Both the position numbers and the translations under genes were made by a program. Below, in pieces: positions 48,401 through 51,400 of a DNA stretch of 64,000 bases; positions within the stretch are counted from its first letter, which is position 1; the number at the start of each line of letters is the position of its first letter. Source of the DNA: Saccostrea cucullata (Eukaryota). The DNA is taken from NCBI RefSeq assembly GCF_032062105.1, contig NW_026930107.1:1-64000 (forward strand), in the 5' to 3' direction. The notes beneath the pieces are model-generated. The model saw nothing but the letters and a program-made list of their open reading frames with translations. It did not search any database and was not told the origin of the DNA.

Positions 48401-51400
48401 ACCAGCGAGATTAAAACAAATGACGACAATTCTCTTATGTGGGAGGTAGGAATGCTATTAAATCTCTACATTTTTATTAATTAAAATCGACAGACATGTT
48501 CATTTTACAGATTGCAATACGATATGAAATTTTCGGAAAATTATTAAATTTCTTACAAAAATTACAATCATTTACTTAATTTAAACACACAAAAAATTAA
48601 ACACAAAAAATTCCGCTCTGGCTAATTTTTAACGTGGATAAAAATATATTTATCACTCTAACTATGTATATTTTGTCTCCTGTGCCCTTTCCCCGGAAAT
48701 AAATTCAAGTTTAAGCAACAGTTGTAGAATTTTGTATTTTTTCTATACTTTTCTGCGTCTCTGTATACGTGACCAAATAAGATTTACAGCCTGTTTGTTA
48801 GGACATCGGTTTCACCGTTTGAATACAAGAAAAACGATACCTCTCTTGGTACAGTCTTTTTCGATTTGAAATACAAAAGACCAAGATTAAACGAATATTA
48901 CTTACAACACCTGCAGTGTTGACATAATATCTGTCTATTTAACACAAGTACTTGATGGAAAGCAGCTGTTTGCTTACACTTCATTACTATTTGTAGTACA
49001 GAATGGATGTCTGAAGTAAGCTCTACCATAGTCTGTATAAACCAGGACACACGCGGCTCTAAATCTCACATTTGTAAGCACGCCTCAAGAGCTCGAATTA
49101 AGTGTAACCAAGTAAAGAATCGTCAAAATAAATATTTAATTCGATACTGCACACACCATTTATTCGCGAATTGTTCATATGACAACTCTGTATTTGGATT
49201 GGGGTCGGGATGTTTGCCTACATTGTATGACTTCAAGTTATCGCGAGCCCGATTACCAAATTTCAAGTGGTTAAAGAGACATTTATAGACATTCGTGCAA
49301 TTGACGGTAAAAGAACGTGTTGACAATTCAGGATGTTAATAATCTTTTGACAAACAGTGTTCCTTAAATTGTCTACTTCTTTTTGCAGTTGATCACACCA
49401 TGTGGGACAATCTTGCTTAATCCTGCAATATATATCTTTTAGTAGACTATCAATAATGCGATATAAGTGGCAGAAAAACTATAGCATCACCTCTAAATAC
49501 AGACTGCAAAATTGTCATAATAATTTTTCGAAATTCTTACAAAAAATAATTATAAATATTAAAAAAAAATCCAAACAAAACACTGAAGCGATACTACATA
49601 ATTTACACTCAATTTGAAAAAAGGTTAAGCATCCGTTCTTTTTACAGCAAAGTAAAATTAAAGTTTACATTCCCTTTCCTGGTCCGCGATCCCGTGCGTT
49701 GGGTGTTTTGCTGAAGGGACTCCGCAACATGTTGTAGTATCTTACCCATGACGTTTTGCCCCGGCCATGCCTTGGGTTTGGTGTGCAACGTTTGCGTAGA
49801 GTTGAGACCGGTTCCCCAGTACTGGTCGTACACGGAATGCGCAAAGATCTTTTCGTTAGTATATACCTGTATAATTTTCTTTTTCATCTCAGATACTTGT
49901 TTCACTTTTTCAAGCACAATTTCCTCCATGACCTTAGGCGCGTCCTGTTGCCAGGATCCGGATGCTTGGACGGATTTACCGATCTGTTTGCATTCCAGTG
50001 CAGATTTTGCTGCTCGGATCTTCTCCGCTGCCATAAGATCGCCTGCTCGCACTGCCTTAGTGACCTGGAATGCTTGCTCGGCGGAATTAAAAGTTTCCCC
50101 GAACACTTTGAGATCACACGCAAAGAAATTTGATATTACATTTTCCTGACCATCGAACGCCTCAACTTCCTTAGAATTGTCTTCGATGTATTGCGGACAG
50201 AGATCGGATCCGGGTTTATGGCCTGCGTCCTTGCAAGCAGAACACCGCGGATTGTTTTGGCACAATTTGAAAGAATGACCAGTTTCCCAGCAATTTGTGC
50301 AGGTTATTGGAGGTTTTTCGAAATTTTGCCCTCGATGGAAGATCTTACATCGAAGGCCTGCGCAGTAGCTGAAACGAGGCAGGGCCTTGTTTTGCTCAAG
50401 GGGTTCTATATAAAGGAATCTGTTGCCATTTAGAACGTTGGTCATTTTATTTGTTGTAGGATTTCTAATCTTTTCGAATTTAATTTCGCTTTTTGGATGC
50501 ACTCCTAGCTTATTGAGCATGTCATGTATAGCGGAATCGTCCACAGAAAGTGGAATGCCGCATATCGTAACTTTCAGGACTGGGTCTTCTGGATCAGTAA
50601 GACCAGCTGAGTAGGGATTCGATTCGTACACTCTCACATGTTGGTTGTTGAGATCAAATCCGTCAATGATAAGTTTATCTCGACTTTGTTTATCATTTAA
50701 GTAGATTCGCCAAAGGTCACGGTCCAATTGGACGCATTTAACCGTGTCCCCGATTGTTACGCTTACTGCATCTAATAAACCAAAGTTTGTAATTCTTTCA
50801 TTGTTTGATTTTGGCAGTTCACTGTCTTTTAGAAAAACTGGTTTCATTAATTTGTCCATGTTGTATACGGACGAAGTTCAATGAATGCCACAAGTTTTGA
50901 AATACTTGGATAATAGTAGTGAGTAGATACTCACCGGTGTGTCGTATAAACACGTTGAGAAATCCTCACAAAAGTCACAAAAGTTTCAACTTGAAATGCA
51001 AATAAATAGGTAAATATCACAAACATTCACACTATATACACTTTTCGCGCAGAAATCTGCACTCCAGAAGCGTTTAAACTTCCAAAATTGTCAAAAAGAC
51101 GGGAGCTAGAAGAAAAGCGTCCTTCCACCTACTCGTCACGTGACATCATGCGTAAAGAAGGTTCGTAAAGAAGTCTGGTAAATCAAATAAATAAAATTTA
51201 ATTATTAACCCAAAACACGACCAAGACTATGGCTTGTGTTAAGTTTTTATCTCTGAACTGTAGAGGGTTAAATAGTAATGATAAAAGAGTAATTTTGTAT
51301 GAATGGTTTAACTGTCAAAAATGTGATATTATTTTATTACAGGAAACACACTTTGTTGATAAAAAGCAGAGTATCTATGATTCGAGGTGGCATGGTTCTG

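What the first reader, a model, noticed from the sequence alone, without database searches (positions are those of the whole stretch)
49654..51228. Head-to-head ORF1/ORF2 layout explained by a balanced twin-priming inversion of a full-length element
Seen: ORF1 is on the minus strand and ORF2 on the plus strand, both inside one TSD pair. Minus-strand ORF1 reads ...AGG AAA GGG AAT G|TAAA straight into the TSD, and the forward segment restarts with GTAAAGAAG (at 51152 and again at 51165). Re-inverting 49668-~51151 gives a normal 5'UTR-ORF1-spacer-ORF2-poly(A) element. ORF1 would be 406 aa, ending [13 protein letters not shown] (stop 51192-51194) or [13 protein letters not shown] (stop 51179-51181). 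The TSD 3' end (TTTA) is complementary to the RNA (UAAA) at the breakpoint, which is the twin-priming signature. Established: twin-priming 5' inversions are well characterised for mammalian L1 and usually come with truncation. Inference: the same mechanism operates in an invertebrate Tx1/L1, here with almost no loss, and the 10-nt CGTAAAGAAG repeat may be a junction repair scar.
Basis: partly seen in the sequence, partly recalled or inferred. Interest (0 to 1): 0.72.

Follow-up and report, generated by a model that had tools for sequence, protein, structure and literature searches.

The report
Front-flipped LINE copies in an oyster
An oyster jumping gene sits in the genome with its front quarter backwards, and five more front-flipped copies turn up in sister families, so the two-ended copying known from human LINE-1 likely also happens in molluscs.

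Summary
Real. A young 5.8-kb L1/Tx1-type LINE in a PRDM-gene intron has its whole 5' 1,476 nt (promoter plus ORF1) inverted inside a perfect 14-bp target duplication; other copies of the family are colinear. It is not a one-off: five more 5'-inverted copies occur in three sister families, each with a 13-15-bp target duplication and poly(A); 6 of 85 distinct resolved insertions (7%). Across the six, primer-side microhomology exceeds chance (15 nt, P about 5e-6) and five have arms meeting within 35 nt, the human twin-priming signature. Twin priming is the likely cause; this copy was probably primed without pairing. No reads of this individual and no empty allele were available. The scan noted single flipped LINEs before on other DNA (dinoflagellate, sharks, RTE). 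Known mechanism, new lineage, with a rate estimate.

The parts
49654..49667 (+). 5' copy of the 14-bp target-site duplication; its 3' end is the inferred second primer
   Evidence: Exact 14-mer, only two copies in the window; clade TSDs are mostly 14-16 bp
49668..51144 (-). Inverted arm: element nt 1,476 back to nt 1 (ORF1 body and whole 5' UTR)
   Evidence: 97% to colinear copy L022 on the opposite strand; boundaries
49669..50859 (-). ORF1, first 397 of 418 codons; the frame runs on through the target duplication to a stop at 49642-49644 (405 aa)
   Evidence: native length 418 aa in L021
49714..50145 (-). NADAR (YbiA-like) domain of ORF1, aa 239-382, not cut by the inversion
   Evidence: Pfam PF08719 E 1.5e-25; E. 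coli YbiA 2b3w E 4.5e-6
51135..51144 (-). Palindromic GTCACGTGAC motif that marks the element's 5' end
   Evidence: 6 matches in the genome to the 19-nt 5' pattern; same or similar motif begins most full-length copies of the clade
51145..51151 (-). Likely 5' leader of the RNA (7 nt, starts with G when read in element sense)
   Evidence: Other full-length copies carry 0-13 variable extra nt between TSD and motif; assignment is inference
51151..51160 (+). Templated junction insert, a copy of 51164-51173
   Evidence: Perfect 10-nt repeat; absent from 7 of 7 colinear copies
51160..55439 (+). Forward arm: element nt 1,507 to poly(A); 30 nt (element 1,477-1,506) are missing between the arms
51229..54981 (+). 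ORF2, 1,250 aa, uninterrupted: APE endonuclease, reverse transcriptase, C-terminal zinc-binding region
   Evidence: Pfam PF03372, PF00078, PF13966; closest solved structure human L1 ORF2p, E 7.5e-80
55414..55439 (+). AATAAA signal (55414-55419) and poly(A) tail (55427-55439)
   Evidence: Sequence
55440..55453 (+). 3' copy of the target-site duplication; first nick reads TTTT/A on the bottom strand
48302..48445 (+). Host PRDM gene exon, first half of PR/SET domain, upstream of the intron holding the element
   Evidence: Pfam PF21549 profile 5-60, E 2.8e-9; donor GT at 48446
55970..56188 (+). Host PRDM gene exon, second half of PR/SET domain
   Evidence: Pfam PF21549 profile 46-123, E 9.3e-30; acceptor AG before 55970

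Best explanation
This is one L1/Tx1-type LINE insertion whose 5' 1,476 nt are inverted inside a single target duplication, likely made by twin priming during integration, and it is one of at least six such copies in this oyster's NADAR-ORF1 LINE clade. Shown: the layout, the 14-bp duplication, the 30-nt loss, the filler, colinearity of other copies, five more inverted copies. Inferred steps: (1) ORF2p nicked the bottom strand at TTTT/A and copied the RNA from poly(A) to nt 1,507; (2) the top strand was nicked 14 nt away before the first copy finished; (3) the top-strand 3' end primed a second copy at nt 1,476, which ran to the RNA's 5' end including a 7-nt leader; (4) the end of that copy first paired a few nt inside the forward copy, added 9-10 nt, slipped back and completed the join. 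Because this copy has no microhomology at step 3, priming here was probably an end-to-end jump onto a cut RNA 3' end rather than internal pairing (about even odds against loose pairing nearby). The product cannot move again on its own promoter, as promoter and ORF2 now point apart (inferred).
For: Left breakpoint falls exactly on the end of the full 14-bp TSD with no un-inverted 5' remnant. Arms meet within 30 nt on the RNA; in human tumours 66% of 5'-inverted L1 have a short internal deletion, median 14.5 bp (bioRxiv 2024.08.27.596794). Both arms are 1.2-3.1% from the same colinear copy L021. Five further inverted copies among 60 loci of three sister families, each with poly(A) and a 13-15-bp TSD; one lies in a tandem repeat whose three other units show the target once. 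Primer-side microhomology 0, 1, 2, 7, 1, 4 nt, sum 15 against about 0.2-0.45 expected each, P 4.5e-6; P 0.003 without the 7-nt case. Five of six have arms within 35 nt. A second copy (L220) also has an inverted arm reaching the 5' end plus a 5-nt leader. TSD length matches the 10-20 bp said to be needed for second priming (PMC4245944).
Against: The window copy has 0 nt microhomology at the primer junction, seen in only 28 of 605 human 5'-inverted L1 (PMC2912911). Its inner junction holds 15 nt of filler rather than an overlap. Two of the other five have only 1 nt with a mismatch beside it. No raw or long reads of this individual and no empty allele were seen. The sister family B gave 0 inverted of 12 resolved loci and family F 0 of 30 fetched loci, many not resolved at the 5' end.
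Confidence: 0.82

Rival explanations
1. Break-and-flip during integration: a full-length first-strand cDNA broke near nt 1,480-1,507 and the distal piece was ligated directly to the top-strand overhang by host end-joining, with no second priming on RNA.
For: Explains zero microhomology, the retained leader, the 30-nt loss and a templated insert of the kind end-joining polymerases make (the last point is recalled knowledge).
Against: The five sister cases show excess primer-side microhomology, which points to pairing with RNA; twin priming has precedent and yields the same layout.
Confidence: 0.09
2. A normal full-length copy inserted first and a later repair event inverted its front part.
For: This genome holds other repair-type inversions: a 59-nt fold-back in L086 and an inverted duplicate in L165.
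Against: The breakpoint would have to hit the TSD/leader boundary to within a few nt of a 5.8-kb element; the same coincidence holds in six of six inverted copies. The copy is young, both ORFs open.
Confidence: 0.04
3. Local misassembly or a chimeric read.
For: Junctions not confirmed by reads; public contigs from other individuals show only the colinear joint 49668/51160; no second haplotype in the assembly.
Against: An artefact would not respect the TSD end, leave a leader, or add a templated insert; flanks are unique and continue one gene's PR domain in order; five independent contigs show the same pattern.
Confidence: 0.04
4. A new LINE architecture with divergent ORF1 and ORF2 driven from a central palindromic promoter.
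For: Both ORFs are open and the palindromic motif lies 85 nt upstream of the ORF2 start.
Against: 13 of 13 loci with both parts are colinear; of 105 further loci none has ORF1 opposite ORF2; the 5' pattern has only one inverted context among 6 matches.
Confidence: 0.01

Closest known systems
5'-inverted (twin-primed) human and chimpanzee L1 insertions (model of Ostertag and Kazazian 2001, not held, seen only as described in PMC2912911, PMC12016303, PMC2837659 and bioRxiv 2024.08.27.596794)
   Same: Inverted 5' arm plus forward 3' arm with poly(A) inside one 10-20-bp TSD; short loss or duplication between the arms; primer-side microhomology across the set; variable extra 5' nucleotides on full-length copies.
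   Different: Host is a mollusc and the element an NADAR-ORF1 Tx1-type LINE. Rate about 7% (2.6-14.7%) of resolved copies against 18-31% in human germline sets. The window copy keeps its whole 5' end, where human inverted copies are typically 5'-deleted, and it has no primer-side microhomology (4.6% of human cases).
Crassostrea gigas Tx1 LINE families with a YbiA-family NADAR domain in ORF1 (noted in PMC12477816, passages seen)
   Same: Oyster LINE with NADAR at the ORF1 C-terminus, APE-RT ORF2.
   Different: The passages seen say nothing on insertion structure; assignment of this family to Tx1 rests on that match, not on a tree built here.
Zebrafish Nimb-2_DR insert with a 5' inversion in chicken DT40 cells (PMC4245944, passages seen)
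   Same: A non-L1 element giving a 5' inversion; TSD peak about 12 bp.
   Different: One engineered event in a foreign host; that paper concludes inversion depends on L1 and on human host factors, whereas here it recurs in a natural invertebrate germline.

Membership tests
5'-inverted (twin-primed) LINE insertion | Whole insert flanked by one TSD of about 10-20 bp | tested here: met
   14 bp in the window; 13-15 bp in five others
5'-inverted (twin-primed) LINE insertion | Forward 3' arm ends in poly(A) at an endonuclease-type nick | tested here: met
   AATAAA, A-tail, TTTT/A on the bottom strand
5'-inverted (twin-primed) LINE insertion | Inverted 5' arm starts directly at the TSD and comes from upstream in the same element | tested here: met
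   Inverted nt 1,476 to 1, forward from 1,507; both arms closest to L021 among copies holding both
5'-inverted (twin-primed) LINE insertion | Short deletion or duplication where the two arms meet on the RNA | tested here: met
   30-nt deletion; within 35 nt in 5 of 6 copies, 521 nt in L220
Canonical annealing-primed twin priming (this copy) | Microhomology between the TSD 3' end and the RNA at the internal priming site (95% of human cases) | tested here: not met
   0 nt in the window copy. Met for the set: 1, 2, 7, 1, 4 nt in the other five, P 4.5e-6 for all six
Canonical annealing-primed twin priming (this copy) | Microhomology at the inner junction of the two cDNAs | tested here: inconclusive
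   15-nt filler with possible 1-nt overlaps at each step; overlaps of about 4, 4, 0 and 2 nt in four others, read by eye
Canonical annealing-primed twin priming (this copy) | Two reverse-transcription events on one RNA | not testable with these tools
   Needs a retrotransposition assay
L1/Tx1 group of LINEs | Two ORFs; ORF2 with N-terminal APE endonuclease, RT and C-terminal zinc-binding region; poly(A) tail | tested here: met
   human L1 ORF2p is the best solved match, 272 bits against 63 for R2
Tx1 clade specifically | RT groups with reference Tx1 elements in a tree | not tested
   No reference set was at hand; only the NADAR-ORF1 match to C. gigas Tx1 families reported in PMC12477816
Bidirectional LINE architecture | Other copies share the divergent ORF layout | tested here: not met
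   13 of 13 colinear; 0 of 105 with ORF1 opposite ORF2

The most novel reading that the evidence does not exclude
5' inversion is a routine outcome (5-15% of insertions) of invertebrate Tx1-type LINEs with long target overhangs, so twin priming is ancestral to the L1/Tx1 group and needs no mammalian host factor; and first-strand synthesis tends to stall just before the ORF1 stop (32 and 35 nt upstream in two of six cases), after which the second DNA end can capture the cut RNA without pairing, flipping an intact promoter-ORF1 unit that still encodes a full NADAR protein antisense to the host gene.
Probability: 0.3. Interest if true: 0.62.

Novelty: new member of a known kind. Interest (0 to 1): 0.46.

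Why it matters
A cell-culture study concluded that 5' inversion depends on L1 itself and on human host factors (PMC4245944, passages). Six natural cases in four oyster families, with the human junction statistics, say the route is open in a mollusc germline too and give a first rate. That makes a standing question testable by comparison: whether overhang length (14-16 bp here) rather than host lineage decides if a LINE inverts. In practice, repeat annotation in bivalves will split such copies in two and can misread them as divergent-ORF elements.

Tried and rejected
Empty allele or second haplotype in the assembly: none; left flank has one match, itself, right flank only repeats. Public runs: 7 listed, best share 0.39; four laid, all short contigs from other individuals (flank differs at about 3%), showing only the colinear joint and spanning neither junction, so they neither support nor contradict. 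A second laying gave no result, so the empty-allele test stays open. NADAR in ORF1 as the novelty: already in print for oyster Tx1 (PMC12477816). ORF1-anchored survey found no second inversion; it is biased to near-full-length copies, and the inversions appeared only in 3'-anchored sets. First automatic TSD count failed for families D and E and was replaced. Searches were script failures, redone. Flags dismissed by inspection: nine of ten (short palindromes, flank repeats, L086 fold-back, L165 inverted duplicate) and L211 (a 35-nt match). RNA folding near the ORF1 end showed no shared structure in two families.

Full report
Observation. The window holds a LINE between two copies of a 14-mer at 49654-49667 and 55440-55453, the only two in the window. 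ORF1 is open on the minus strand from ATG 50859; ORF2 is open on the plus strand, 51229-54981, 1,250 aa, with APE endonuclease, RT and zinc-binding matches; ORF1 carries a NADAR domain. Human L1 ORF2p is the closest solved structure. The nearest named ORF1 protein (99% identical) is labelled Saccostrea cucullata by its source, and other named relatives come from Pinctada and Magallana, so the host is an oyster. The element lies in the intron 48446-55969 between two exons of a PR/SET domain.

What other copies show. A search of the own genome gave 62 matches. Of 16 loci fetched, 13 hold both ORF parts and all 13 are colinear. Seven of seven copies that span the site have 30 nt between GGGAATG and GGTTCGTAAAG that the window lacks. 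Against colinear copy L022 the window reads: TSD, element nt 1,476 back to 1, 15 nt of filler, nt 1,507 to poly(A), TSD. Native ORF1 is 418 aa. The RNA after the breakpoint begins CCAAC; terminal microhomology is 0 and 4 of 14 bases match.

The filler. Full-length copies across the clade start with a GTCACG(TGAC) motif preceded by 0-13 variable nt, inside TSDs mostly of 14-16 bp (46 loci returned a TSD, a few of them spurious). Human full-length L1 has similar extra nucleotides from upstream transcription starts (PMC2912911). The first 6-7 filler nt read as such a leader in reverse, which means the inverted arm reached the RNA's 5' end (inference; three of them could also come from the forward template). 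The remaining 9-10 nt copy 51164-51173 exactly, a templated insert.

Is it a one-off? An ORF1-anchored survey said yes: 104 ORF1 matches (80 of the 93 not yet held were fetched); tblastn over 105 loci and blastn over 137 loci found no other 5' inversion. That sample favours near-full-length copies. Searches anchored on the 3' ends of three more families (60 loci fetched from the hit lists, not all) gave five more: L168 (C5634), L198 (C21672), L210 (C3381), L213 (C5768), L220 (C15177). Each has poly(A) and a perfect 13-15-bp TSD that abuts the inverted arm. L168 sits in a tandem repeat whose three other units show the target once. Gaps between the arms on the RNA are +30 (window), about -25, within about 5, +27, -1 and +521 nt (values for L168 and L198 are blurred by divergence from the reference). 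L213 is the truly balanced one; L220 also keeps the 5' end with a 5-nt leader. Primer-side microhomology is 0, 1, 2, 7, 1, 4 nt; the sum of 15 has P 4.5e-6 against positions drawn from each reference, and P 0.003 without the 7-nt case. Ordinary truncated copies also show microhomology, 1-6 nt in 12 scored, so this marks pairing at integration, not inversion alone. A seventh candidate (C4068, inverted piece directly before a forward piece) appears in a hit table of a sixth family but could not be fetched; 0 of 30 fetched loci of that family showed an inversion, many being unresolved at the 5' end.

Rate. Of 137 loci given in five families, 39 lacked a poly(A) end, 10 were haplotig duplicates and 3 ran off an edge; of the 85 left, 6 were inverted, 21 full-length and 58 truncated: 7.1% (95% interval 2.6-14.7), or 5 of 84 without the window. 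Among the 43 with an automatically found TSD it is 6 (14%, 5-28%). By family: A 1 of 15, B 0 of 12, C 1 of 25, D 2 of 16, E 2 of 17. Searches score only 40 candidates and favour long matches, 'truncated' includes later deletions, and very short inverted arms (under 60 nt) were not counted, so this is a rough figure. Human figures are 18.4% germline and 21.9% somatic (PMC12016303) and 30.9% (PMC2912911).

Mechanism. The breakpoint on the exact TSD end, arms meeting within 30 nt, and five parallel cases point to inversion during integration by twin priming (0.82). Short internal deletions are the commonest form in human tumours, 66%, median 14.5 bp (bioRxiv 2024.08.27.596794). The window copy is atypical in lacking primer-side microhomology, which only 28 of 605 human cases lack (PMC2912911), so I do not file it under canonical annealing-primed twin priming. 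I infer an end-to-end jump of the second primer onto the cut 3' end of the remaining RNA; loose pairing at a 12-of-14 site 62 nt downstream is possible but weak. Rivals: break-and-flip of a finished cDNA (0.09), later inversion (0.04), misassembly (0.04), a divergent-ORF family (0.01).

What could not be shown. No second haplotype or empty site is in the assembly. Four public runs, contigs only and from other individuals, show the colinear joint and span neither junction. The junctions therefore rest on the assembly. Clade placement as Tx1 was not tested by a tree.

Literature. Seen: PMC2912911 parts 1-3 of 5; PMC12016303 passages and section 8; bioRxiv 2024.08.27.596794 passages and section 4 part 1; passages of PMC4245944, PMC2837659, PMC12477816, PMC13174262; term look-ups with no relevant text in PMC5389967, PMC3747384, PMC6007223, PMC10294476, PMC13295347 and bioRxiv 2026.02.10.705023. 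Ostertag and Kazazian 2001 was not held. Nine searches listed no report of 5'-inverted LINE copies in molluscs; two of them were dominated by off-topic hits, the library lacks most subscription papers and Repbase Reports, and no supplements were read. I recall work from the Okada group comparing LINE 5' ends across vertebrates that I could not check. NADAR in oyster Tx1 ORF1 is in print. This scan has noted single twin-primed-looking LINEs in four other genomes (unchecked notes, seen after my reading was formed).

Verdict. Real feature, known mechanism, new lineage, with replicate cases and a rough rate. Interest 0.46.

Noticed in passing
window 51160 and L213 (C5768) forward-arm start: In two families about 50% alike in ORF1, the forward arm ends 32 and 35 nt before the ORF1 stop codon. 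Two of six, noticed after the fact; may mark a stall point for first-strand synthesis.
   Followed up: partly
window 49642-50859 (minus): The flipped ORF1 stays open for 405 aa with its NADAR domain and 5' UTR intact, pointing antisense into the upstream PRDM exon; the forward arm puts an AATAAA about 550 nt before the host splice acceptor.
   Followed up: no
window 42773-43126, 48302-48445, 55970-56188, 57508-57810 (plus): Host gene with split PR/SET domain and C2H2 fingers; the upstream piece with a VLYGY motif resembles PRDM14 (recalled, no call confirms the name).
   Followed up: partly
5' ends of full-length loci: A palindromic GTCACGTGAC (E-box-like, label recalled) begins most families of this clade, even those with ORF1 only 43% alike, preceded by 0-13 variable purine-rich nt; it likely sets the transcription start.
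   Followed up: partly
G000, 104 ORF1 matches: The NADAR-ORF1 LINE clade has many co-existing young families in this genome, several with uninterrupted ORFs; 73 related proteins in public sets, most with NADAR.
   Followed up: partly
L086 5437-5495 (C19238): 59-nt fold-back inverted duplication inside an otherwise colinear copy.
   Followed up: no
L191 (C14730), L189 (C9139), L031 (C15282): Copies with large internal deletions; L191 keeps both ends and a 16-bp TSD while lacking two internal blocks, possibly template skipping during copying.
   Followed up: no
G000 C4068:5450-6654: Hit table shows an inverted piece directly before a forward piece reaching the tail, with about 67 nt overlap: a likely seventh 5'-inverted copy; not fetched.
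   Followed up: no
window 37928-38695 (plus): 255-aa open frame of proline-rich tandem repeats.
   Followed up: no
window 55607-55787: About 180-bp dispersed repeat with many copies at about 80% identity, 3' of the insertion.
   Followed up: no
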